Assembly: GCA_004431415.1 (NCBI GenBank)
Contig: QPMI01000475.1
Location: 27,887-91,886 of the forward strand
Source of the DNA: Cyanophora paradoxa CCMP329
Taxonomy: Eukaryota; Plantae; Glaucophyta
DNA: 64,000 bases
Reading direction: 5' to 3'
Shown: positions 10,269 to 64,000 of the stretch, piece after piece
Position numbering within the stretch: the first letter of the stretch is position 1
Layout of the letters: the number at the start of each line of letters is the position of its first letter
Program-made: the position numbers and the translations under genes
Notes under the pieces: model-generated
Database searches by the model: none
What the model saw: only the letters and a program-made list of their open reading frames with translations
Told to the model about the DNA's origin: nothing

Positions 10269-10920
10269 TTATCAATTGTTTAATTGGACATAATGCAACT
10301 CTGGGGTCAATTTTGATACAGTAAAAATCTTACCCGAATCTCATCGATTGTTTAATTGGACATAATGCAGTAACCATCTAATCCAACAAAATACACCGCA
10401 ATCTCATCAATTGTTTAATTGGACATAATGCAGTAACCATCCCTTCCAACAAAATACGCCGCAATCTCATCGATTGTTTAATTGGACATAATGCAGTAAC
10501 GAGTGAATTATTTTCATCCGATATTTCATCGATTGTTTAATTGGACATAATGCAGTAACCATCCCTTCCAACAAAATACGCCGCAATCTCATCGATTGTT
10601 TAATTGGACATAATGCAGTAACCATCCCTTCCAACAAAATACGCCGCAATCTCATCGATTGTTTAATTGGACATAATGCAGTAACGAGTGAATTATTTTC
10701 ATCCGATATTTCATCGATTGTTTAATTGGACATAATGCAACTCTGGGGTCATTTTTGTTTCCCGCAATCTCAACGATTGTTTAATTGGACATAATGCCGT
10801 AACGAGTGAATTATTTTCATCCGATATTTCATCGATTGTTTAATTGGACATAATGCAGTAACCATCTCTTCCAACAAAATACGCCGCAATCTCATCGATT
10901 GTTTAATTGGACGTAATGCA
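10269..10920. repeat. CRISPR-like repeat/spacer array: 11 x 29-bp repeat with three recurring 30-43-bp spacer types
   Basis: TCATCGATTGTTTAATTGGACATAATGCA starts at 10269, 10341, 10404, 10467, 10526, 10589, 10652, 10711, 10770, 10829 and 10892. Confidence 0.9.
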
Positions 10921-11274
10921 ACTCTGTGTGAATTTTTGCGTTTTACGATAGAATGGGAGGTGGACTACTTCAATCGTGATTGATTATATCATAAATTTAT
11001 GTTCCCTCAATCGAGATTATATCGATTTTGCATAAAATACAAATTAATCGCGTTTATATCAATCGCAAAATACGTATTTTTCATTTAAATACAAATTAAT
11101 CGCGTTTATATCATTAAATCAATCGAGAAATACGTAATTTATCAAAAATTTATATAAATTTCATAAAATCATAATTTAATTGATATTATACCAATTAATT
11201 TAATCGAATTTATTTAAATTTAATTGATTTTATTAAAAATTTTGATTTATTTTTTAAATATTTTCGATTAATTT

Positions 11275-11381
11275 ACACATAAATAAAAACAAATTTAAAT
11301 CCTGAGCGACAGAGCGAAATGAGCGCGAAGCGCGAATTGAGCGATAGAGCGAGGGATTTAAATTTGTTTTTATTTATGTGT
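11275..11381. repeat. Family-1 terminal cassette: perfect 28-bp inverted repeat around a GAGCG-rich loop
   Basis: ACACATAAATAAAAACAAATTTAAATCC (11275-11302) and its reverse complement (11354-11381). Confidence 0.9.
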
Positions 11382-11382
11382 T

Positions 11383-11499
11383 ATGGGTATCAGAACAGAT
11401 ATAGCTGCTGTCTCAGCTCTTAGAGGTGTTACTCCTGATACTCTTTCTCAAACAGGGTTTTACCAAGAGCCAGATGTAATTGATGACCCAACCCAATAA
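11383..11499 (+). pseudogene. 3' remnant of the family-2 paralogue-A gene, cut by the family-1 insertion
   Basis: MGIRTDIAAVSALRGVTPDTLSQTGFYQEPDVIDDPTQ* aligns with FGMRTDPAAVAATRGLNPDNNLNNFYDDPFPGDPTP* at the end of 7220..8062. Confidence 0.8.
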
Positions 11500-11522
11500 A
11501 AGATATATCCCTTTAATGTAAA

Positions 11523-12353
11523 ATGGCTGAGCAACCCCCACTTGAACGAATTATTACACCACAGCTATCATTAGCTGCCCCAGCAAACCATGTTCTACAG
11601 CATGCTACCTTTGATGATGTAGAGGGTCTCCAATCGACAGAGGTCCAACCTACAATGAACACCTTTGGTTCCACCCATAAACTGAGATTACAGGAACTCA
11701 GATGTGATAAAAATAATGGAATAGTTAAGACAACTAAGCTACTTGTTACCAATGCAAACTTTTCTGCTCATTATGGAGACCCAGATAGCTATGGAGATCC
11801 TCTTTCTACTTATTCTTTTGAATCTAGGTCGGGAGCTATTAACTGCAAATCGGGGGAGCTTATATTGGTGATGGTCTTAGGGTTGGTGGGGCTGTTGGAG
11901 CGCCTCTATTTGTGAATGATCAACCCAATCCCATTGATCCCAACACAAGAATTCGAACCTATGTCCCAGCATGAATGCCCCTATATAATCAAGATATTCC
12001 CCATTGTTGTGAATGAACAAACAGCAGTAGTAGATTCTCTTGTTGAGATTGGTGACCACTACAAGGTAGTTGTGGATATTCCACCAGATGTTTATGCTCT
12101 TTGTCAAGTAGAGGGTGGAACTCCTAATTTTGCAGTTGTGATCACCCCATATGATAATTTTGGTATTGCTTATCATGGAGTCAATTTCGGTTTGGAAGAC
12201 TATCAGTTTCTGGTTAGAGCCACCAAGTTTGGTATCTACAAGTGTGTATTATATGCTGAGAGAACCGATTTTATTGCAAAGCAGAATACCTATGCTGAAT
12301 ACTATGGGACAAATCGATATTTCCCCATTTTCGGGCAGGATACTGCTCCATAA
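11523..12353 (+). CDS. Family-2 paralogue B fibre-like protein (frameshifted in this assembly)
   Basis: ORFs 11523..11915 and 11916..12353 are collinear with 8082..8927, with frame changes near 11855 and ~11915-11970. Confidence 0.75.
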
Positions 12354-12375
12354 GAATATTGGTTATATATAGAGT

Positions 12376-12648
12376 ATGGATAGTAAAACAAAAAAGTTTA
12401 TTGATGCTGCTATGACAGTCCATGGTAAAGATAAATTCGATTACAGTGAGACACATTACATCAAAGCTCAAGAGAAAGTATCTGTTAGATGTTTGCAATG
12501 TAACAAGGTGATCCTAACATATCCCTTTAATCATGTGAAGGGATCAGGGTGTAGGGACTGTAACAAAAGAAAGAGTCAAGCACACAGGAAAAGGGCTACT
12601 TCATCAATCAGAGTAGAGTATAGGGATATTTGCATTAGGTTTGACTAG
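12376..12648 (+). CDS. Small Zn-ribbon protein, family 2
   Basis: Same length as 8949..9221 (90 aa) and clearly orthologous (KAQEKVSVRCLQCNKV..NHVKGSGC). Confidence 0.75.
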   Translation: MDSKTKKFIDAAMTVHGKDKFDYSETHYIKAQEKVSVRCLQCNKVILTYPFNHVKGSGCRDCNKRKSQAHRKRATSSIRVEYRDICIRFD

Positions 12649-12671
12649 TTAATTTTTCTAAGGTATTCTTA

Positions 12672-13070
12672 ATGGAGACTAAATACAGAGGCTTTCATGT
12701 TATGCTTGATTACAAGGCTAAATCAGCTATTGCAACAGGACATGAGCATGTAAGCTTCCTAGGTAATTGGATTATGGGAACCCTTGAACAAGCAGTATTA
12801 AGACAAGGCATTAGGATTGTTCATAAACACTGTGAGATATTTGATGGCAAAATATCACCTCCTGGTTTTGCATTGGTTCTGCTATTAGATGAAAGCCATT
12901 GCACAGCTCATTGTTATTCCAATGAAGGCATGTTAGCAATTGATATATTCAGTTGTGGTAAAGAAGCTCAGCATAAAACACAAGCAGTTGCAGATGAGAT
13001 CGATAAAACAATGAATTTCTTAACATTTGAGAAGACTGAGAGACATAAACATGATAGATTCCCGTTTTGA
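12672..13070 (+). CDS. speD: S-adenosylmethionine decarboxylase proenzyme, family 2
   Basis: PPGFALVLLLDESHCTAHCYSNEGMLAIDIFSCG. Intact orthologue of 9408..9809. Confidence 0.9.
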   Translation: METKYRGFHVMLDYKAKSAIATGHEHVSFLGNWIMGTLEQAVLRQGIRIVHKHCEIFDGKISPPGFALVLLLDESHCTAHCYSNEGMLAIDIFSCGKEAQHKTQAVADEIDKTMNFLTFEKTERHKHDRFPF

Positions 13071-13303
13071 TGGGTTTCTATTATGGTGATCAGGGTGATT
13101 TACCTTTTTTATTACAATGGCAATCGTTAAAAAAGGATATAATATATCCTTTCCTACAATAGCTTTCTACAATGATTTTCTTTCTACAGTAGCTTTTGTT
13201 ACAATAGAATTCTACTGTATGATGTAGCCGAAATATGAATGCACCCTACATTAAGCAATGTCAAGTATTTCGAATACTATTCGATTTCCTTACAATAACA
13301 CTC

Positions 13304-14481
13304 AGCATCTGCCCTAGATTCCCCCTATTATATTATATTTATATTTAAGTGGACTCAAGGTTGACTCATATTAATCGTAAAAGTAGTAAAAGTATATGGA
13401 TTTTGTTACGAATTCAATGCAAGGGTTGACTAAGTGGGTTGAGTTGACTCAAATTTCACAGGAAATAACAATGAATCAGAGTATAAATGCATTTTTTGAA
13501 TCAACTACACCAACTAACACTGAGATTTTACCAATATATGAGGTCCTTACTGAATATGGTTTGTGTGACAGGTGTGACAGGTCTATCCCAAACTTTTCTA
13601 TAGCATAAAAATGAACTCTCAAAAGTTTGGGATGGACCTGTCACACCTGTCACACTCGATTATTTCATTTGTTTATTCAAGTAGAATTACATAGATAAAC
13701 TTCTTACTTATTGTTACTGAGTTTTTCATTATAAAAGAGATCCTTACTGAATATGGTTTGTGTGACAGGTGTGACAGGATGCATTTTGTGAATCAACTAC
13801 ACCAACTAACACTGAAATTTTAACATTAAAAGAGATCCTTACTGAATATGGTTTGTGTGACAGGTGTGACAGGTCTATCCCAAACTTTTCTATAACATAA
13901 AAATGAACTATCAAAAGTTTGGGATAGACCTGTCACACCTGTCACACCCAATTATTTCAAAAATCCTAAGGGTCCCCCTTAGAATCATTAAAACATGATA
14001 AAAACATATAAGTTTCATGTATAATTACGATTGAATTCAATAAGAGATCGATTTGTTTTATTTAACAAATGAATCTTTTATGGATCTTAATCGAGTTTAG
14101 CGATATATTTCCGATTAAATGAATTAAATTTAATTAAATTTAATCGAGAAAGTACATGAATATAATATCGATTAAATCAATTAACTTTTAGACCAATCAC
14201 ACATAGTAAAATGCGGAGTTTTAACCAGAGGCAAGATCTAATTGAGATTCAGTTATATTATTCGGAAATATATACAGATTATCGATAGACTCAGTAAGAC
14301 TAATCGGAAAATAAGAGAAATTTACGATAAAATATCGAAAAGAATACAAAATAATCGAAATAAATGAATATTCGATAAGATATACACAGATTATCGATTG
14401 ATTGAAATAGAATATACGAGATATATCAACAAAATCAATTAAGATAAGCCGAGGGTTAAAACTCCGCATTTTACTATGTGT
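13304..14481. repeat. Family-2 terminal inverted repeat (~1.18 kb), right end of left element
   Basis: Reverse complement of 58169..59343 with only a handful of differences. Contains TGTGACAGG iteron hairpins (13563-13655, 13855-13947) and the terminal 283-bp cassette 14199-14481. Confidence 0.95.
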
Positions 14482-42098: not shown

Positions 42099-43567
42099 CC
42101 CTCCCTCCCCCCCTCGAGCTCCGGGTCCTCGGCCTCTGCCCCGCTTCCGAGTGTTGGCGAGACTGTCCTCTTTTCGGTCTCCCCGTCATTCCGGCTCCCT
42201 GCTCCCCCTTCGGCGCCTCGGGTCCCATATGCGGGTCCTATCCCGCTTCCTGGCGCTCGTGAGATTCGCCGCCGGCGCCCTCGTCGGGCCCTTGCGCCCT
42301 CGAGCTCGTCTCTCTCTGCGCCGCCCATGGCCATGACCTCCGTGTCATCTGATCCGGCGCCACCCGACCTTTCTCCAGCTTCGCTGCCCTCTCTTCGGCG
42401 CCGGCAGCGATCCCCGTCACCTGCTCGCGGCCCTTCCCCTGCCTCCGACCCTTCCTCGGCCCCTCCTCGCCTAGGCCTCTTCCGTCTCGTCGGCCCCCGC
42501 CGCATTCCCGTCGGCGGATCTCTCGATCGACCCTGGACTCTCCGCCTGCCACTGTCTGCGGGGTACCTCCGCCGCCGTGTTCGGCGCCGGCTGTCAGTAC
42601 TTTGCTCGGTAGCTCCCCGTCGTGGCTCCTCGGGGGCCTCTTCGTCGTCGTCGTTCGCTGGGTTCCGGCTCCGGTCAGATTTCTCGCCGGGCTTACCTTC
42701 TCCTGGCTCTGCTCCTGGGCCCTCAGCTCCGGGACCGGCTTCCCCGATCTCCTCCCGGACTCGTGGTCGTACCCGTCGCCGGCTTGCCGAGCCTGCGGCT
42801 CCTTCTACTTCCCCCCGGCGGTTTGCCGGGCCGGACCCTCCGGCCTTTGTTCTTGATACCGGACTGCCGCCTTTGCCTTCGTCTTCTGCTTCGCTGGTCG
42901 CGATCGTATCCCGCCGGCGCCGGCGTACTTCTTCGTCTTCTAGTTTAGTTCGGTCTGGTTCGGATTCTGATCGTAGTGTTGATGCTAGAGTTAGTTTCAA
43001 TACTAGCTATAGTCCTCGTGCTCGACCTGTTGTTCGCCGTCGTTTGCAGTTCGATTGCCCGCCTCGACCCTGGCCGGCTTTAGTGATTCCTTTGACTGTC
43101 CTTTTGCCTGCTCTTGATCCGCCTGCTCCGCCTCCTGTGTCCTCCTCGACCTCGTGCCGTAGCTCTGCCCTTTCGCATCGTCCTGCTTCGCCTCCGCCTC
43201 CATGTCGTCTTGTTGTTCCTCTTACTTGTCTTCTTCCTGTTATTTATCTTTCTCAATTTTGTCCCCCGCTTCTTAGTGATGTAATTCCTTCTGACTCAGT
43301 GATATTGATGGTATCTCTAGCTCTGGCTCTTCTTCGTGTCAGTTATCCTCTGTCCCTAGATCTGCTCGATTTATCGTCTCTTCTCGCTATCGATCTGTCT
43401 CGAGCTCTGTGTCTTTCCTTTTTTATTGTCGATTTTGGCTCTTTGTCTTATCTTTCTTCGTGCTCTTGTCTTAGTTATTTTGCTTTTTTGTCTTTATGCC
43501 CCCTGGGCAGCCCCCGCAGTGCTGGTGTCTAGAGACTGTGGCCGGTAATTCACCAAAAAAAAAAAAA
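42099..43567 (+). mobile_element. Non-autonomous or 5'-truncated poly(A) retroposon with 8-bp target-site duplication
   Basis: TACCTTTG at 42091-42098 and 43568-43575. Ends ...GGCCGGTAATTCACC-poly(A). Strongly C/T-rich, with no RT motif recognised. Confidence 0.85.
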
Positions 43568-44094
43568 TACCTTTGTTTTAAATCAACAAATTGCTTATCC
43601 ACTTGTACCCCAACTTCATTCGCAGCCTGCGGACTGACGTAAAAACTGCTGTCTGTAGAACCCCCGCGCCGCCCTTGCGCATGCTCGCCGGTGCGCAGTG
43701 CGCACTGCGGAGTCTGCGGCACACGGTATGCGCGCGCGCGAGGCGTACACTAGTACTACTATAGCAGCAACAGAAGCAACGTTGCTACGCCGCTACGGTT
43801 AACAGCAGGCTGTCAGCAGCAGCTGCTGCTGCGCGCGCGCCTCCAGGCCCTGAGGCTACGCCGATCCGCGGGGTCAGGGTTCAGGACTCCGGGACTCCGG
43901 GAGAGCTTGCTCATCCATCCCATCAGCGACCGCAGCATTTGAGCAGCCGCCGATCATCGTTACAACGGAGTTACTCGAGCTCGCGTCGGGTTCCCATTTT
44001 GGCTGCGCTCCGTGCGCGGCATCAGCAGCTGCAGGCGCCGCTGGGCCTGAGGGTCCGCAGCAGAGGCGAGTGAGAGACGCTGCCGGCGGCTGGC

Positions 44095-47000: not shown

Positions 47001-48803
47001 GGGCCGGGCCGCCCCCTCGCCTTCAAGCCCGAGCCCGAGCGCCCCGCCGAGCGCGCCGCCCTCCCGCCCCGTCCGCCCCGCCCCACCCCGCCCCCCTCTC
47101 CCCGCCCCCGCTGAGAGCCGCGGGCGCGCGCGCAGGGACGGCGGTGGGGAGGAGGCGGCGGGCGCGGCGCTGGTGCACGTGCTCAACGCCAGCGCGCCGG
47201 CGACGGGCGAGCGGCCGGCGGGCGGCGCAGCCTCGCAGCCGGCCGTGAGCATCAGCTCTGCGGTGGCCCCCGCGAGGGCGCCGCCGCCGCGACGCCCCTG
47301 TCGGCGCCGGCCGGCAACGCGGCGGCGTCGACGGCGGCGGCGGCGGCGGCGCTGGGCGACCGGCGCGGGGCGGCGGCCAGCGCCGCGCCGACCTTCCTCG
47401 TGCCGCGGGGACCCGCGGAGACCTCGGGCGTGCAGAACGACTCCCTCGTCAAGGAGATCGCCATCGCCCAGGCCCGCCCGCCCGTCGCTCCTGTACCCCC
47501 ACCCCACCCCCGCCCTGACTTCTCCCCCAGGTGGCCTTCCGGAGCATGTGCGAGCGGCTGGAGAGCATCGGGAAGTACCTCGCGCAGGGGGTCATCGAGC
47601 CCCTGCACCGCGCCGGCCGCCTCGGCAAGATCGGCGCGCCCCCCCCGCACCCCCCCGCCCGCCCCTCTGAAACCCCCCCGCAGGCCTGGAGGAGCGGGAG
47701 CTGACGATCTTCTTCGCGGACGTCGCTGGCTTTACGTCCCTCTCCGAGTCGATCCCCCCCGAGCGCCTCGCCCCCTACCTCCAGTGCTACCTCACCGCCG
47801 CCAGGCCCGCCCCAGGCCCCCTCCCCTTCTCCTTCCCCTCCTCCTGACTTGATTTCGTGCCGCGCAGCCACGCAATCCAGGAGCAGGGCGGCACGGTGGA
47901 CAAGTTCATCGGGGACGGCGTCATGGCCTTCTGGAATGCGGTCCGCCTCGGCTCGGCCTGGGCTCGAGCGCCGGCCGCGCCGCGCGCCGCTGACTGAGGG
48001 CGCCGCCCCCGCAGCCGAGCGCGGTGGCGGGGCACGGGGCGGCGGCGTGCCGGGCGGCGGTGACCTTCTCGGAGACCCTCGAGGCCCTCGCCCCCAGCCT
48101 CGCCCTCCGCGACCTGCCCCCGGTCCGTCTCAGGCCTCGCGGGGCGGGCGGGCGCGCCCGCTGATGCTCCGGCCCTGCGCAGTTCAAGGTGCGGATGGGG
48201 ATCCACAAGGGGGTGGCGCTGGTGGGGAACGTCGGGTCGGACGACCGCATGAACTACACGTGCATCGGCGACGCCGTCAACCTCGCCTCGCGGCTGGAGT
48301 CCCTCGGCAAGTTCTACGGCGTCCAGTCCATCATCTCCGAGAGTGCGTGTCGCGCCGCGCCGCCCCTCCTGCGGAGTCCTGCGAGGGTCCGACGGCTCGC
48401 CCGCCCGCGCAGGCGTGCACGCGGAGGCGAAGGGGGCGCACCTGTGCCGCATGCTGGACCGCGCCGTAGTCGTGGGGCGCTCGCAGCCCGTGCTCATCTA
48501 CGAGCTCATGGGCCGCCGCCGCCGCTCCGGATCCGCCGCCGAGCCGGCGAGCTCGAAGCTCCCTCGATCGGGGCGCTGGGCGCGGAGGCGGCGGCGGCGC
48601 AGCAGGAGGAGCTGGCGCGGCGCTACGAGGCGGCGCTGCGGACGCTGTGGGCGCGCGACATCGCGGCGGCGCTGGCGGCCTTCGGGGACCTCGCGCGGGA
48701 CTTCCCGCGGGACGGCCCCACGCGCGTCATGCTCGAGCGGGCGGGGCGCTTCTCGCAGGACCCCGCCGCCTTCTCCGACGTCTTCGTCGCCTCCTACAAG
48801 TGA
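44095..48803 (+). CDS. Membrane class III adenylate cyclase with extracellular (Cache-like) sensor region (multi-exon)
   Basis: Two TM segments. ERELTIFFADVAGFTSLSE, GTVDKFIGDGVMAFWNA, RMGIHKG..VGNVGSDDRMNYTCIGDAVNLASRLES. The K in DKFIGD indicates ATP specificity. Confidence 0.88.
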
Positions 48804-51170: not shown

Positions 51171-51297
51171 TAGTTTCTGGTACAGACCGTGACTGTACAG
51201 AAATGCATGATACTGTGGGAGGCGGAATTTCGCCAGAGTCTATTAATTGCCGTAATTTACAAATTGCCGAAACGCCGAATTCGAATTCGGCAATTTA

Positions 51298-51588
51298 TTT
51301 TTTTTTGGTAAATTACCGGCCACAGTCTCTAGACACCAGCACTGCGGGGGCTGCCCAGGGGGCATAAAGACAAAAAAGCAAAATAACTAAGACAAGAGCA
51401 CGAAGAAAGATAAGACAAAGAGCCAAAATCGACAATAAAAAAGAAAAGACACGGAGCTCGAGACAGATCGAGAAGAGACGAGAAATCGAGCAGATCTAGG
51501 GACAGAGGATGACTGACACGAAGAAGAGCCAGAGCTAGAGATACCATCAATATCGGAAGGAATTACATCACTAAGAAGCGGAGGACAA
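51298..51588 (-). mobile_element. 5'-truncated copy of the poly(A) retroposon, inserted into an AATTGCCG MITE
   Basis: Reverse complement of ~43258-43567. Flanked by AATTCGGCAATTTA (51284-51297) and AATTTGGCAATTTA (51588-51601). A further 3' end lies at ~51775-51858 (+). Confidence 0.8.
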
Positions 51589-57541: not shown

Positions 57542-58168
57542 TCTGTCTGATCTCTCTCAGCTGAAATGCTGATGGACGGACCGGGTACCGGCACTATGTC
57601 ACTCGCGCAGGTCCCGCGTCGGAAGTTCTGGAGGCGTCGGACAGCACCGACCTGGAGCCGCGGCAGACAATCTCTGGGTCCGCGATCCGCTTTGCCATCC
57701 GATGTCCCTGCTTGACGCTACACTGTCCACGCTGCCGGCAGGGATCTGAAGCTCATTCCCGAGTTCAAATCGGACTCGATTCCAGGGCCCAAGTCATGCC
57801 CACGGTTCGCTTACGCGCTTCTCGCTTCGCTAAATTGAAGTGCTACAAGAAGAACATGCATATGCTTTCTCACGGCAAACTTCGTTTGTCTGTGTCATCG
57901 CAGGGAGAGTGCCTGGACGTCCAGGCCCCCATCCACAACGCTACGGACTTTCTCAAAACCGCCTGCGAGTGCGTTTCGCATACTTTAAACCTCACGCACA
58001 AATATATATATATAGCATACATTTGCACATATACGATTTATAAACCAGCGTCGAGGTTCGAATTCAGGGCCAGACGTTGAGATCGCGCGCGCGTGCGGTT
58101 TCGCAGCAGCGAGTCGGCCACCTGCGAAGTGCCCGTGGGCTTGAAGTGCCCGCTTGCGAACGCACAGC

Positions 58169-59343
58169 ACACATAGTAAAATGCGGAGTTTTAACCCTCG
58201 GCTTATCTTAATTGATTTTGTTGATATATCTCGTATATTCTATTTCAATCAATCGATAATCTGTGTATATCTTATCGAATATTCATTTATTTCGATTATT
58301 TTGTATTCTTTTCGATATTTTATCGTAAATTTCTCTTATTTTCCGATTAGTCTTACTGAGTCTATCGATAATCTGTATATATTTCCGAATAATATAACTG
58401 AATCTCAATTAGATCTTGCCTCTGGTTAAAACTCCGCATTTTACTATGTGTGATTGGTCTAAAAGTTAATTGATTTAATCGATATTATATTCATGTACTT
58501 TCTCGATTAAATTTAATTAAATTTAATTCATTTAATCGGAAATATATCGCTTAACTCGATTAAGATCCATATTAGATTCATTTGTTTAATAAAACAAATC
58601 GATCTCTTATTGAATCCAATCGTAATTATACATGAAACTTATATGTTTTTATCATGTTTTAATGATTCTAAGGGGGGACCCTTAGGATTTTTGAAATAAT
58701 TGGGTGTGACAGGTGTGACAGGTCTATCCCAAACTTTTGATAGTTCATTTTTATGTTATAGAAAGTTTGGGATAGACCTGTCACACCTGTCACACAAACC
58801 ATATTCAGTAAGGATCTCTTTTAATGTTAAAATTTCAGTGTTAGTTGGTGTAGTTGATTCACAAAATGCATCCTGTCACACCTGTCACACAAACCATATT
58901 CAGTAAGGATCTCTTTTATAATGAAAACTCAGTAACAATAAGTAAGAAGTTTATCTATGTAATTCTACTTGAATAAACAAATGAAATAATCGAGTGTGAC
59001 AGGTGTGACAGGTCCATCCCAAACTTTTGAGAGTTCATTTTTATGCTATAGAAAAGTTTGGGATAGACCTGTCACACCTGTCACAAACCATATTCAGTAA
59101 GGACCTCATATATTGGTAAAATCTCAGTGTTAGTTGGTGTAGTTGATTCAAAAAATGCATTTATACTCTGATTCATTGTTATTTCCTGTGAAATTTGAGT
59201 CAACTCAACCCACTTAGTCAACCCTTGCATTGAATTCGTAACAAAATCCATATACTTTTACTACTTTTACGATTAATATGAGTCAACCTTGAGTCCACTT
59301 AAATATAAATATAATATAATAGGGGGAATCTAGGGCAGATGCT
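58169..59343. repeat. Family-2 terminal inverted repeat (~1.18 kb)
   Basis: Reverse complement of 13304..14481. Terminal cassette 58169-58451 is bounded by a 28-bp perfect inverted repeat. Confidence 0.95.
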
Positions 59344-59548
59344 TACTAAATGCAGTGTTAGATTGATGGGATCATAGATGGGATCACAGTTATCGAAGCA
59401 ATATAATATAGTTGAATATTCGATATCATAAGTTGATCGAAACGATAAGTATATGGTTATAAATCGCGATTTTTGAGTTATAATCGAATTTAATCGAAAA
59501 AACCGCGTTTTTTTTTTACTTTTCAAGTTTCACGGCGAACGAAGTAAA

Positions 59549-59622
59549 GGTTCCCGAGCGGATTTGAACCGCGTAGTTTTGAGTCAGAAATCAAGCGCTC
59601 TATTCTCTGAGCCAAAAACGGC
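59549..59622 (-). ncRNA. tRNA-like / Pol III promoter-containing unit
   Basis: Minus strand GCCGTTTTTGGCTCAGAGAATAGAGCGCTTGATTTCTGACTCAAAACTACGCGGTTCAAATCCGCTCGGGAACC. D-arm GCTC/GAGC, T-arm GCGG-TTCAAAT-CCGC, imperfect anticodon arm, no acceptor stem. Confidence 0.5.
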
Positions 59623-59869
59623 TTACCACCAAGTCGACTCTGGGCTAGTGTTTCACCAAGTCTACTATGGCAAGTGACTTTTGCATCTTCAAACTGTTAT
59701 ATCTCATCACCAGATCATCAAAACGCAACGTTCTGCATATCGCTGTGAAGCGCTTGATAAGATCTACAAGACTATGTGTATATCATGTGCATATATGTAT
59801 ATCAGTCATACATATATTTGGAAAAAACGAGTTTTTGCCTAGCAAACTAGCTAGTTTTGGTCCTTTCTC

Positions 59870-61225
59870 TTAGTGTTCTCTGAGGTTTAGGGGCTGTATA
59901 TGACTCCTTAGTAGTCTGAAAGTCATTATACCATCTCTGGCTATTAACCTCAGAAAGTTTCTGTGTCCTGCTATAGTGAGCTTTTTGAGTTCCCTGTTAA
60001 CTTTCCCAGCCTTCTCCTTTCTAGCCTCTATCAAAGGCTTATCTGGGACTTCATTAGCAGCTTCTATGCCTTCTCTCCTTATAGCAGCATCAGCCCTGGC
60101 TTCTCTTTAGCTTGCTCCAAGGCATCCACTGTAGGGGTTTCTAGATATTCAACTGCATTCACAGGCAACAGCTCATGGAAAGCAAACCTGTTTTCTATGA
60201 TCTCACCAGTGGGACTCCTTAGCTTAAACTTAAAGCCTTCCCTACTATCAACAGTGTAAACCATCCTAGACAATTGTTACCCTGTTTAGCAAAGGGTTCT
60301 TCTCAACTTTCACTCTAACAAACATGCCAGGCTGCATGGTATCAAGGTAAGCTATTGATTTCTTGAATCTTTCATCTTCTAATCCCACTATATACCTATA
60401 ATGCTCCTCTGTAGTTTCGCCTGGCTTCATCTTAGTAGCTGAGTGAACTGTATTATTGTAATTATACTCAATATCACCTAACACATCAAAGAATCTAGCT
60501 GTGTTATTAGCTATGCAATAGTTTGTGATCAGTCTCTTAATCTGCTTGTTAAAGGCTTCAATTCGACCTTGGCTTCTATGGTCAGCAGTTCCACTCACTT
60601 GGTGTTCTATGAATTTACTAGATAAATACTCCTGGAATATTCGATTTTGGAATTCACTCCCAGCATCTGATTGAACTTTTACTATGGGTCTTGCCACTCT
60701 CATTTCAAGCTGTTTAAATGCAGCTAATGTAGTGAGAGCTGATTTATCCCTTATAGGTATGATATACCCAGTTCTCAGTGTAGATTCCATTGCAGTCATA
60801 AAGGTATCATAGCCATTGTTTTGTTTCTTATAAGCTGGGAAAAAGAGCAAATCAATCACATAGGTATCAAGGGGTTGCCTAATTGGGACCATGGAATCTC
60901 TCTTCCTAGATATAGCAGTGCATTGATCTGAACAACTTCTTGTTTTTTATAGAACTCTTGCAACTGCTTATAGGATTCATCAGGTAACTCAGCCCTCATA
61001 GCTTGAAGCCCTTTGTAACCAGTTCTCACATCATAGAATCTCTTGGCAATCTTGCTGGTTTCTTTCACTGCAATAGCAACTGGATCTCTACTGGGACAAG
61101 CTCTTTCATCTCTGACTTTTTACAATTCGAGATTCTCCCTTTTCCTCCTTGGGAACTGTGATAGGCAGTAGGTTACCTTGTAGTTGCTCAGTGGTTCTCC
61201 TAACTATTCTTCCAGTTGCTGGCAT
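59870..61225 (-). pseudogene. Retroviral-like (rve) DDE integrase of Polinton type, frameshifted in this assembly
   Basis: YVIDLLFF, KVQSDAGSEFQN, QGRIEAFNKQIK, YNNTVHSATKMKP. Pieces at 60856..61068, 60266..60892 and 60079..60273. Confidence 0.88.
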
Positions 61226-61228
61226 CTC

Positions 61229-64000
61229 TTAATTAAAAGGAACAGAATTAATACCATCTGGTAAGATGTATCTCTTTGCATCAAAGCAGTTTAGGGCAAC
61301 CCTTCTACTCACAGTGTCTATTATGTGTGATCTGCCCTTCTTTTCTGCTTTGCAGTCACAGTCTTGCTGATACCTGCAAATAAACACTGTTTAAAATCAT
61401 TAAATTGGAGTTCCTCAGTTGAAGTCCCAGAGAGCTTACTCCTCTCAATCTCAGCAGTTCTGAAACTGTAAACTTTAGCTCTCAGACCCACATACTCCAA
61501 TATAGCAGAGCCAGGCATTTCATTTTTGTATTACCTGGGTCATTCTGGAATCACCTCCAAGTCTAATGCATAGGATATATCTCTATATCTTTTTGTAGGG
61601 TCTTAGATTCGATATATAGACAAAGGAGTCAGTATCATGGAATAGTAACTTTGCTTTTGTCCATTGGGACCTTACAGTATCATAGAAGAACTTGTAGTTA
61701 TGCAGTTTGGCTGCATCCAGAACATAAGCCCAATAGCAACTGGCTTATCTAGCTTCACATGCTTTGTGTAAAACTCAAAGGCAACTGCTTTTTCGTTTAT
61801 GGGACTTGTTGATTTCACCAATGGGGAGGCTGCATATTTCATAAACAGTTTCTCACTGTTTGCATCTTAACCACAGATCTACCTCTGCAAGATTCAATGC
61901 ATTCCCATAGATTGAGTTATTCATGAGTTTATAGAAATCAGCCTCGAATTATTCACTGCTTTCCTTCTCATCTCAGTATTCAGCTCAATGTAGGGTTTCA
62001 TTACAGGAGCCACAGTAAATGATAGGACCCTGTGAACCTTCTTTAGTTTCACCCCTTTGTCCAACAGATACTGTAGAAGAGGCTCAGAAATCACATAGTT
62101 GGTCACAGAACAAAGTTTGCAGTTAGCTTAGGGGTCTTATCAAGCTCTTCTCCTGAGAGATCTAATAGGCTCTTTTGATATTGTGATAATTCTGCATATT
62201 CTACTATTTTCTTGTTAATAATTAGGGGAAATCACTGTGGTCTAGATATAGCCTAATTGGGTAATCCAGATCAACTTCCAGGAAACTGGATCTGTTATCT
62301 TGTGGGTTGAATTCGGTCTCCCATCTAAAATCACCAACTGGATTGGCTGACTCAAACAGTAGCCATACAAGTTGTTAGCATCAAACAGCATTATATGGGA
62401 GTTCTCACCATCAGCCTCAGCATACCTACAAGGCATTGTTGCAAAGCCACCCCTGATTCCCCTCTCAACAAATTCGTATTGCTCTACATCACTTATAAGC
62501 TCTATTTTTGCCTTGGTGTCCTAAGCATAGCATCCCAAGATAACCCAGGTGCAGATACATAATGAACTGGGTCCAATCCATATACTGAGTGTGAAAGCCT
62601 TCTGAAAGCCTGGAATTTGCTCATTACTCATCTACATCAGCAGCCCCAAAGTCCATAAAATTACTTGCATCAATGAACTTGTAAAGACCCCATTGCAATG
62701 AAAGGTATTGATCAAAGTTTTTCGAAAGGATTTCGATTCGCTTTTTATCACCATGCCTGCTATTTTTCTGAAAATGAATGTCCCACAGTCATCCATTTGG
62801 TCAACAACCACTGCTACTTTTGTTTGCTTTGAGATTCTCCTATGGAGATTGCAGTTTCTGCATGCAGGTGCAATGTAATTACCTGTGTGGTGATCATGAT
62901 CCCTGCATTTGAAGTTTTCCTTGGTGAACCTCTCACTGCAAAGGTAACAGTGTTTGGTAGCTCTGTAAATAGCCTTTTTGCTCATCTGTGAGTTCATTCA
63001 TGGGAATATTGGTGAACAGGAAATCGATTAGCTCTCTTGCTTTGGACTCCAAGCATTCAAACAGACCTCCCATTGGATCCTGACCCTCAAATCGAAACTC
63101 CTGAACATCTGCCCCAGTGACTATTCTAATGTTGACTGCTGAGACTTCCCTCTTGGATTTCGATGCATCAATGGGGATGCTTCTATGTTCAATCTTGCAG
63201 TAAACCACAACAGGAAGCCAGACAGTTTTCTGAGGTTTTTCAGTCCAAACTCTATTGTGGTGTCAGGCTTAGGGGTGATTCCCTTTGAGAGTCTCCAATC
63301 AATGCATCTGTTTGAGTCCACATGAGCAGTCAGTTTAGCCTCAGACCTGATCGAGATAAGCATGTATCACAGTAGTGTAACTTTTGATCCTTGGTTTTTA
63401 TCAAGGGCAACTCTGAGAAGTCTTGAAAGGGACATGATAGTAATATAGTGACCATTCCCTTCATCATCATGAATGAGCATTAGATTAATCTTTTGCTTTC
63501 TGCCTGGGTTGCTGGATTGATGTAGGGGATATATAACATCTCCATCCATTCCAAATATGTTGTATGCTGATGCCTGCATTTTGAGATTCGAATTTATCAA
63601 TGATTTCAGCATCACAAGGAACAGGGAATGGATATTGTCGAAATTGAGAGCCAAAGGATTGTATGTGGTTGGTGAGTATTTCCATTTGCGATATTGTGTA
63701 AGCTCACTTCTCTTGTGGGAATTTACATCTTTCCTATGGATCCATGCCAAAATGGCATTTTCAAAGCAAGAATCATCAATATTTCGAATATTCACTGTGG
63801 CTCTCTTGGCTGCAATTGATTCTGGTGTTTTAACATAGCAGCCACCAGTTGGGGCATAACTCATAATAGCAACTCTTAGCATTTCGATTCTCTCCAATCG
63901 ATAGCTATCAACAACATTCATCTGTTCCTGACACATTTGGGCTGCTTTATTCAGCTCAGTTCGAATATTTCTCGATTTGGTTAATACAAAATAATCGCTG
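61229..64000 (-). pseudogene. polB: Protein-primed family B DNA polymerase with endonuclease-VII-like Zn insert, frameshifted in this assembly
   Basis: FDANNLYGY (motif A), KLMNNSIYG (B), FHDTDSF (C), YVGLRAKVYS, FDAKRYILPDGINSVPF*, CRDHDHHTGNYIAPACRNCNL, and N-terminal VNIRNIDDSCF. Confidence 0.92.

What the first reader, a model, noticed from the sequence alone, without database searches (positions are those of the whole stretch)
10269..10920. CRISPR-like repeat/spacer array inside the terminal region of a eukaryotic virus
Seen: 11 copies of a 29-bp repeat (TCATCGATTGTTTAATTGGACATAATGCA) are separated by 30-43-bp spacers of only three types, in the non-periodic order A,B,B,C,B,B,C,A,C,B, with an A-like tail. 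The core TGTTT-AATT-GGACA can fold as RNA with two G-U pairs. It lies between the iteron hairpins and an extremely AT-rich stretch, and family 2 has nothing equivalent. Inference: not a canonical CRISPR (spacers recur, no cas genes in view), but a shuffled modular array that could yield small RNAs, act as a protein-binding or decoy platform, or vary between copies.
Basis: partly seen in the sequence, partly recalled or inferred. Interest (0 to 1): 0.7.

Follow-up and report, generated by a model that had tools for sequence, protein, structure and literature searches.

The report
Shuffled repeat array at virus end
Near one end of a virus-like element inserted in a eukaryotic (likely algal) genome sit eleven copies of a fixed 28-base core joined by related, reshuffled linkers; this is not a CRISPR array but likely a row of protein-binding sites mixed by recombination, although one linker found in other copies pairs with a gene of a sibling virus, which leaves an RNA-guide role open.

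Summary
The array is real: 11 cores (0-3 mismatches) and 10 linkers in the stated order, plus a worn 12th unit. It lies between two long hairpins and the terminal palindrome of a likely polinton-like virus nested in a sibling element whose ends lack it. It is not CRISPR: linkers recur, resemble one another, and the same types reappear across runs of different years and two species labels. Other copies carry at least six further linkers and other orders, so the array does vary. The core hairpin folds no better than shuffles. Best reading: a recombination-shuffled variant-repeat array whose conserved core likely binds a protein (0.55). One surprise: linker D, seen in 3 of 3 DNA runs, is antisense to a sibling-virus gene at 20 of 22 bases against 17 of 22 for the element's own homologue (chance about 1-2% over 13 linkers). 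No other linker shows an antisense match. An RNA-guide array against rival elements stays possible (about 0.15). No earlier scan note on this array was found.

The parts
10269..10920 (+). Array: 11 near-identical 28-29 nt cores and 10 linkers (A,B,B,C,B,B,C,A',C,B); unit lengths 59, 63 and 72 nt
10205..10268 (+). Worn 12th unit (degenerate core plus an A-related linker); in other copies this linker follows a full core, and further array sequence lies upstream of it
   Evidence: joints 10495->10231, 10432->10231, 10880->10211
10921..10955 (+). A-like tail after the last core
9898..9988 (.). Long hairpin 1 with repeated GGTAAC motifs (likely origin or terminator element; function inferred)
   Evidence: fold z -9.3, 0 of 200 shuffles; motif positions
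10115..10205 (.). Long hairpin 2, near-copy of hairpin 1, directly left of the array
   Evidence: fold z -9.8, 0 of 200 shuffles
10960..11274 (.). Very AT-rich stretch between the array and the terminus
   Evidence: sequence
11275..11381 (.). Terminal palindrome of family-1 element (28 perfect pairs, purine-rich centre); element end at about 11381
   Evidence: uninterrupted family-2 gene joins at 11381 in contigs of X1, X12, X20
9408..9809 (+). S-adenosylmethionine decarboxylase gene, last gene before the terminal region
   Evidence: Pfam PF02675 E 4.8e-12
8949..9221 (+). Small zinc-ribbon protein gene (also present in family 2, 12376-12648)
   Evidence: Pfam PF14311 E 1.5e-4, below the curated cut-off
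8262..8283 (+). Family-1 own homologue of the linker-D site, in ORF 8082-8927 (17 of 22 match to D, 14 of 16 in the block that is exact in family 2)
   Evidence: counts made by eye from the printed sequences
11703..11724 (+). Site in the family-2 gene (ORF 11523-11915) to which linker D of other family-1 copies is antisense: 16 nt exact (11703-11718), 20 of 22 in all, one of the two differences a possible G-U pair
   Evidence: D from table 5c
13304..14481 (.). Family-2 terminal region (comparison): hairpin motifs, AT-rich stretch and terminal inverted repeat, no array; inverted copy at about 58164-59343

Best explanation
The feature is a variant-repeat array at the end of an integrated, likely polinton-like virus: a near-invariant 28-nt core alternates with at least twelve partly related linker types that differ in kind and order between copies, likely because recombination and slippage at the shared core shuffle whole units, and the core likely serves as a repeated binding site for a replication or transcription protein beside the terminal hairpins. 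Shown: the anatomy, the kinship among linkers, their recurrence within and between copies, and the higher conservation of the core. Inferred: unequal exchange as the shuffling process (from the B,B,C duplication, the A/A' deletion, and linker D resembling F at its start and C at its end), location in a terminal inverted repeat, and the binding role (by analogy with baculovirus homologous regions). The protein is not identified.
For: Linkers are kin: mean pairwise score of 12 types 13.1 against 10.9 +/- 0.5 for independent viral fragments (1 of 300 reach it), 0 of 300 shuffled sets, and 10.2-11.2 in 6 real CRISPR arrays; 9 of 66 pairs at p<0.05. All 10 window linkers belong to a recurring type, against 0-4 near-duplicates per 29-109 spacers in the real arrays. 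Higher-order duplication at period 185. The same extra linkers recur between runs: D and the worn-unit variant in 3 of 3 DNA runs (X1, X12, X5), F in 5 of 6 runs laid, spanning 2017-2024 and two species labels: a standing repertoire, not fresh capture. Core more conserved than linker: in X19 record 1 all 5 differences fall in the 44-nt linker and none in 51 nt of core (p 0.019), and the same differences stand in X5 and X20. Position between the hairpins and the terminal palindrome. Modular unit-built termini and small repeat arrays are on record for related viruses (10.1101/2022.07.28.501842 Extended Data Fig. 1 legend; 10.64898/2026.10.13.758929 Fig. 6 legend).
Against: No binding evidence. 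The core's dyad symmetry is not above chance (1596 of 5000 shuffles). Unit lengths (59, 63, 72 nt) keep no helical phase. The sibling family 2 has the same end anatomy without an array, so the array is not generally required. Recombination at the shared core could keep it uniform without selection; within the window the core (6 differences in 308 nt) and the B linkers (5 in 170) differ at similar rates. Linker D's antisense match to a sibling gene (about 1-2% by chance) is not explained by this reading.
Confidence: 0.55

Rival explanations
1. Neutral compound minisatellite: the units are by-products of slippage and exchange in a repetitive viral terminus, the core stays uniform only because exchanges happen there, and nothing reads it.
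For: Family 2 lacks it; no fold or dyad above chance; similar within-array difference rates for core and B linkers; 12 of 13 linkers have no antisense match above chance.
Against: The core is unchanged across 12 or more barely alignable linker types and across two species labels while linker A accumulates changes; the array is kept in a compact multi-copy viral genome in all 3 DNA runs laid.
Confidence: 0.24
2. Antisense guide array: the array would be transcribed in the direction of the viral genes, cut at or near the cores, and the linkers would act through the host's RNA-silencing machinery or a viral protein against mRNAs of sibling viruses in the same nucleus, sparing the element's own homologues.
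For: Linker D (3 of 3 DNA runs) is antisense to a family-2 coding strand: 16 nt exact, 20 of 22, against 17 of 22 for the family-1 homologue. Chance: 0 of 300 shuffles of D and 6 of 300 for the best of 13 shuffled linkers; 0 of 500 in the G-U-tolerant antisense test, whose scoring was chosen after seeing D; 12-18 of 20000 natural decoys, about 1% over 13. Only about 5.7 kb of non-self viral coding sequence was available, so one hit in 13 is what a guide array could give. The element is inserted inside a family-2 gene. The likely host has small RNAs with a 21-nt class and RdRP homologues (PMC3700990, passages; host name from unchecked earlier notes).
Against: One hit, noticed after the fact, in AT-rich sequence. 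The other 12 linkers give nothing in antisense (combined p 0.49). D resembles F at its start (11 of 13) and C further on (11 of 12), so it can arise inside the array. A sense-strand match of variant B1 to the element's own gene scores almost as unusually (9 of 500 family-wise), which a guide model does not predict. Linkers are mutually related and stable between runs. No precursor-like fold. No exact match of 20-nt pieces of A, B or C in viral contigs (a weak test).
Confidence: 0.16
3. A true or derived CRISPR array (prokaryotic repeat captured by the virus, spacers acquired by Cas1-Cas2).
For: The 11-nt centre of the core also opens the repeat of a real prokaryotic CRISPR family with a similar period, and one worn-unit variant in table 5c ends in the same seven letters as those repeats.
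Against: The 11-nt match was forced by my search pattern; over the 28-nt core the best site in any of the 119 loci differs at 8 or more positions. No Rfam CRISPR family among 24 matches to E 10. No cas family among the 82 frames and proteins scanned. Spacers recur and are kin.
Confidence: 0.02

Closest known systems
Unit-built terminal inverted repeats of the polinton-like virus PgVV / Gezel-14T (10.1101/2022.07.28.501842; passages and the legend of Extended Data Fig. 1, figure not seen)
   Same: A small eukaryotic DNA virus whose termini consist of several types of near-identical units that differ between isolates and ends.
   Different: No constant-core plus variable-linker layout is described in what I read; no sequence comparison was possible.
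'Small repeat arrays' drawn in polisuvirus genomes (10.64898/2026.10.13.758929; section 13 read, figure not seen)
   Same: Same virus group, nested or tandem insertions, repeat arrays noted as a genome feature.
   Different: The text only names them in a legend and gives no anatomy or function.
Baculovirus homologous regions (PMC4535591; title and start of abstract in the search listing only)
   Same: Runs of about 64-nt units with a conserved core in non-coding viral DNA; the model for the origin or enhancer role I infer.
   Different: Those cores are 24-bp imperfect palindromes spread over several loci with tested function; here there is one terminal locus, the dyad is not above chance, and function is untested.
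Virus-borne mini-CRISPR arrays of archaeal viruses SPV1/SPV2 (PMC6858448; abstract)
   Same: cas-less array on a virus; one linker here matches a sibling virus, as those spacers do.
   Different: Those use the host's Cas proteins and 1-2 acquired spacers; this host is a eukaryote and the linkers recur and are mutually related.
MIMIVIRE of mimivirus lineage A (PMC6538805; abstract)
   Same: Short repeated sequence in a eukaryotic DNA virus matching a competing small virus (15 bp there, 16-22 nt here).
   Different: MIMIVIRE repeats lie inside a coding gene of a giant virus next to helicase and nuclease genes; this array is non-coding, on the small virus itself, and has no such neighbours in view.

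Membership tests
CRISPR array | Near-identical direct repeats of about 25-40 nt at a roughly regular period | tested here: met
   11 copies, 0-3 mismatches, period 59-72
CRISPR array | Unique, mutually unrelated spacers | tested here: not met
   10 of 10 window linkers belong to a recurring type; linkers are more alike than independent fragments (1 of 300) or real spacers
CRISPR array | Spacers match foreign DNA | tested here: inconclusive
   1 of 13 (D) matches a sibling element at about 1-2% chance; 0 of 3 exact 20-mer scans hit viral contigs; host genome not held
CRISPR array | cas genes in cis or in the host; repeat of a known family | tested here: not met
   No cas family in 82 frames and proteins scanned; no Rfam CRISPR match; only an 11-nt pattern-selected overlap with a prokaryotic repeat. 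The rest of the element and genome were not visible.
Variant-repeat (compound) minisatellite | Head-to-tail units of common origin with interspersed variant types | tested here: met
   TRF period 63, 9.5 copies, 77% matches; linker kinship; alignment
Variant-repeat (compound) minisatellite | Order and content differ between copies or alleles | tested here: met
   Further linkers and other adjacencies in contigs of X1, X12, X5, X19, X20; no contig spans a whole array
Repeats inside the TIR of a polinton-like virus | Array present in inverted orientation at both ends of the element | not testable with these tools
   Only one end of family 1 is in the window; no genome held. Inferred from the matching anatomy of family 2, whose end is repeated in inverted form.
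Repeats inside the TIR of a polinton-like virus | Element encodes polinton-like hallmark genes (capsid, packaging ATPase, integrase, polymerase) | tested here: inconclusive
   Family 2 has an rve integrase-like ORF (E 6e-5, below cut-off) and an endonuclease VII-like domain; family 1 shares three genes with it but its capsid and replicase genes are outside the window
Baculovirus hr-like origin/enhancer array | Conserved imperfect palindrome in each unit | tested here: inconclusive
   Core conserved but dyad 5 of 7 pairs is reached by 1596 of 5000 shuffles
Baculovirus hr-like origin/enhancer array | Binds a viral protein and acts as origin or enhancer | not testable with these tools
   Needs binding and reporter assays
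Polycistronic small-RNA (miRNA-like) cluster | Stable hairpin precursors per unit | tested here: not met
   Units and whole array fold no better than shuffles; 12 linker types combined z -0.94 and -1.05
Polycistronic small-RNA (miRNA-like) cluster | Discrete processed small RNAs | not testable with these tools
   Only assembled contigs were offered

The most novel reading that the evidence does not exclude
Probability: 0.15. Interest if true: 0.85.

Novelty: new variant of a known kind. Interest (0 to 1): 0.42.

Why it matters
[quoted passage not shown] This one has a definite internal plan (twin hairpins, a constant-core array with a pool of linkers shared between copies, an AT-rich tract, a terminal palindrome), and a sibling family in the same window lacks the array, which gives a natural control for what such arrays do in replication or expression. 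If the guide reading holds, it would be a new mode of conflict between integrated viruses of eukaryotes and would make a standing question testable: how many coexisting virus families in one protist genome keep each other in check. One whole-genome search and one small-RNA mapping would decide it.

Tried and rejected
No whole genome held, so no other full array and no other end of the element could be read. Exact repeat in viral contigs: 0. No related loci in viral contigs for the ORF 8082 alignment or the integrase. Protein searches gave 2, 1 and 4 hits (one shared with the first search), all unnamed and without context; the Atlas look-up did not run. Expression: no RNA holder listed on record. 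Three runs guessed to be RNA (X19, X20, X21) hold array-like contigs (10, 16 and 2 of 30 bins), but RNA is a guess, DNA can be in them, and contigs give no strand or ends; X19 and X20 contigs stop near 11057 with 12-13 unlike letters, which does not meet the tool's bar for even a weak hint; I count none of this for or against. Coding role rejected: 9-17 stops in each of 6 frames and unit lengths 59, 63, 72. No tRNA. Rfam matches are generic hairpin scores far below gathering cut-offs and almost all outside the array. Bacterial promoter scan at chance level (7 vs 8.7) and not apt for this host. Shared GTAAC between hairpin motifs and 8 linker starts was considered as a link to the origin but a shared five-letter word is too weak. 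General hairpin propensity of linkers: not supported. Loose-end tables were cut (24 of 123 rows, 16 of 33), so the linker list is partial and several linkers are seen only in their last 25-30 letters. Literature: no paper with virophage + polinton + CRISPR-like + terminal inverted repeat; one, on MIMIVIRE, with repeat-spacer terms; searches listed nothing on this array. No supplements were read and figures are not held; the supplements of PMC10120064 (listing only) and Fig. 6 of 10.64898/2026.10.13.758929 could hold these elements.

Full report
Observation. The array is in the sequence as described. Eleven cores of 29 nt with 0-3 mismatches start at 10270-10893; linkers are 43, 34, 34, 30, 34, 34, 30, 30, 30 and 34 nt in the order A,B,B,C,B,B,C,A',C,B with an A-like tail, and no other copy within 9 mismatches exists in the window. 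A worn twelfth unit lies at 10205-10268. The order contains a B,B,C duplication (period 185, 96% matches), and A' is A with a 13-nt deletion. The claimed core hairpin is weak: -1.1 kcal/mol, 134 of 200 shuffles as stable; the whole array is no more structured than shuffles on either strand; as a DNA dyad it is matched by 1596 of 5000 shuffles.

Setting. Bases 1-14481 and about 58164-64000 are 33-44% GC within host DNA that is mostly 65-79% GC and carries eukaryotic genes. Family 1 runs from the window start to about 11381: large repeat-bearing ORFs, two paralogues (7220, 8082), a zinc-ribbon ORF, an S-adenosylmethionine decarboxylase, two long hairpins (z below -9), the array, an AT-rich tract and a 107-nt terminal palindrome with 28 perfect pairs. 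It is inserted in a gene of family 2, whose uninterrupted form joins at 11381 in contigs of three runs. Family 2 repeats the same gene order and the same end plan, its end is present twice in inverted form, its other end carries an integrase-like ORF, and neither end has an array. That family 1 is a polinton-like virus and that the array lies in its terminal inverted repeat are inferences: its capsid gene and other end are not in view and no genome is held. Earlier unchecked notes on the same genome describe nested polinton-like viruses and a similar terminal palindrome and name a glaucophyte alga as host; I did not test the host name.

Other copies. Of 24 runs listed, 18 hold half or more of the sampled words of 7200-11400. 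I laid 6 different runs (X1, X12, X19, X20; X5, X19, X20, X21), all as short contigs. The same core flanks at least six linkers absent from the window (here D, F, G, H, I, J, read from tables 5c and 7, which showed 24 of 123 and 16 of 33 loose ends), and adjacencies differ from the window's. D and a variant of the worn unit stand in 3 of 3 DNA runs, F in 5 of 6 runs, over 2017-2024 and two species labels. The 2024 runs may be one campaign. So the array varies between copies, but draws on a standing pool. In X19 record 1 all 5 differences fall in linker A and none in 51 nt of core (p 0.019), and the same letters stand in X5 and X20.

Are the linkers captured spacers? Mostly no. The 12 types compared are more alike (mean score 13.1) than independent viral fragments (10.9 +/- 0.5; 1 of 300), shuffled sets (0 of 300) or spacers of 6 real CRISPR arrays (10.2-11.2), which have 0-4 near-duplicates per 29-109 spacers. 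Nine of 66 pairs align at p<0.05, forming groups A/A'/tail/lead, F/H/D and C/D. There is no cas family in 82 frames and proteins and no Rfam CRISPR match. My two-core pattern pulled a real prokaryotic CRISPR family that shares the 11 searched letters; that overlap is selected by the pattern and the rest of the core does not match.

The exception. Linker D is antisense to the family-2 homologue of ORF 8082 at 11703-11724: 16 nt exact, 20 of 22, one difference being a possible G-U pair; the family-1 site at 8262-8283 matches 17 of 22. Chance estimates: 0 of 300 shuffles of D, 6 of 300 for the best of 13 linkers against the whole window; 0 of 500 for antisense matches to viral coding strands with G-U allowed, a test designed after seeing D; 12-18 of 20000 natural decoys, about 1% over 13 linkers. 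Against it: the other 12 linkers give nothing in antisense (combined p 0.49); a sense match of variant B1 to the element's own ORF is nearly as unusual under the G-U scoring (9 of 500 family-wise; 53 of 300 without it); D looks like a join of F-type and C-type halves; 20-nt pieces of A, B and C have no exact match in viral contigs. Only about 5.7 kb of non-self viral coding sequence could be searched, so the test is weak in both directions.

Mechanism. Most likely (0.55) units were multiplied and shuffled by slippage and unequal exchange at the shared core, the linkers drifted into types, and the core is kept as a repeated protein-binding site next to the terminal hairpins, in the manner of baculovirus homologous regions (64-bp units with a 24-bp imperfect palindrome; listing of PMC4535591). 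The anatomy, kinship, copy variation and relative conservation are shown; shuffling route, terminal-repeat location and binding are inferred. Exchange at the core could also keep it uniform with no function (0.24). An antisense guide array against sibling elements rests on D alone (0.16); the likely host has small RNAs and RdRP homologues (PMC3700990, passages). A CRISPR origin is unlikely (0.02).

Comparison and novelty. Unit-built termini are on record for PgVV (legend read) and small repeat arrays are drawn in polisuvirus genomes (section read); terminal palindromes and nested insertions for Halocafeteria elements (passages). Passages on mavirus and EMALE termini gave lengths only, as did the cryptophyte survey. 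It works like a variant-repeat terminal array and fails the CRISPR membership test. My searches found no description of a constant-core, shared-linker-pool array in such a terminus; figures and supplements were not seen. I rate it a new variant of a known kind, interest 0.42, with a 0.15 chance of a guide system that would rate 0.85.

Noticed in passing
window 11275-11381: Terminal palindrome with 28 perfect pairs and a purine-rich centre; family 2 also ends in a long inverted repeat (about 14199-14481).
   Followed up: partly
window 11381/11382: Family-1 element is nested in a family-2 gene; the uninterrupted gene stands in contigs of X1, X12 and X20.
   Followed up: partly
L030-L145 (many loci), against window 10350-10362: A common prokaryotic CRISPR repeat family begins with the same 11 letters as the centre of the core, and a worn-unit variant in table 5c ends in the same seven letters as those repeats at about the right distance. 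Partly forced by my pattern; likely chance, but unexplained.
   Followed up: partly
window 9408-9809 and 12672-13070: Both virus families carry an S-adenosylmethionine decarboxylase gene (55% identical) as the last gene before the terminal region.
   Followed up: no
window 444-7170: Three large ORFs with 12-residue His-Thr repeats (36-nt units) and a module repeated about every 2 kb, likely fibre-like proteins (weak phage tail repeat hit).
   Followed up: no
window 11523-12353 and 60266-64000: The family-2 copies here are broken: the ORF 8082 homologue is in two frames, and the integrase-like ORF is shorter than its relative P0006 (208 against 463 aa, 83% identical), with fragmented polymerase-like frames upstream (polymerase call from recalled motifs, not from a tool).
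   Followed up: partly
window about 1490-1520: Linker variant B1 resembles the sense strand of the element's own ORF 444 (18 of 21 by eye); borderline, possibly chance or a templated insertion.
   Followed up: partly
window 43301-43568 and 51293-51554: An inverted repeat pair of about 270 nt, 98% alike, 7.7 kb apart, around host-like DNA that includes a cyclase-like frame at 48165-48800.
   Followed up: no
L002, L006, L009, L011, L012, L014, L016, L022 at about 2991-3061: Eight IMG/VR contigs share one sequence with two copies of the ten-letter pattern 51 nt apart; unrelated to this array beyond the pattern.
   Followed up: no
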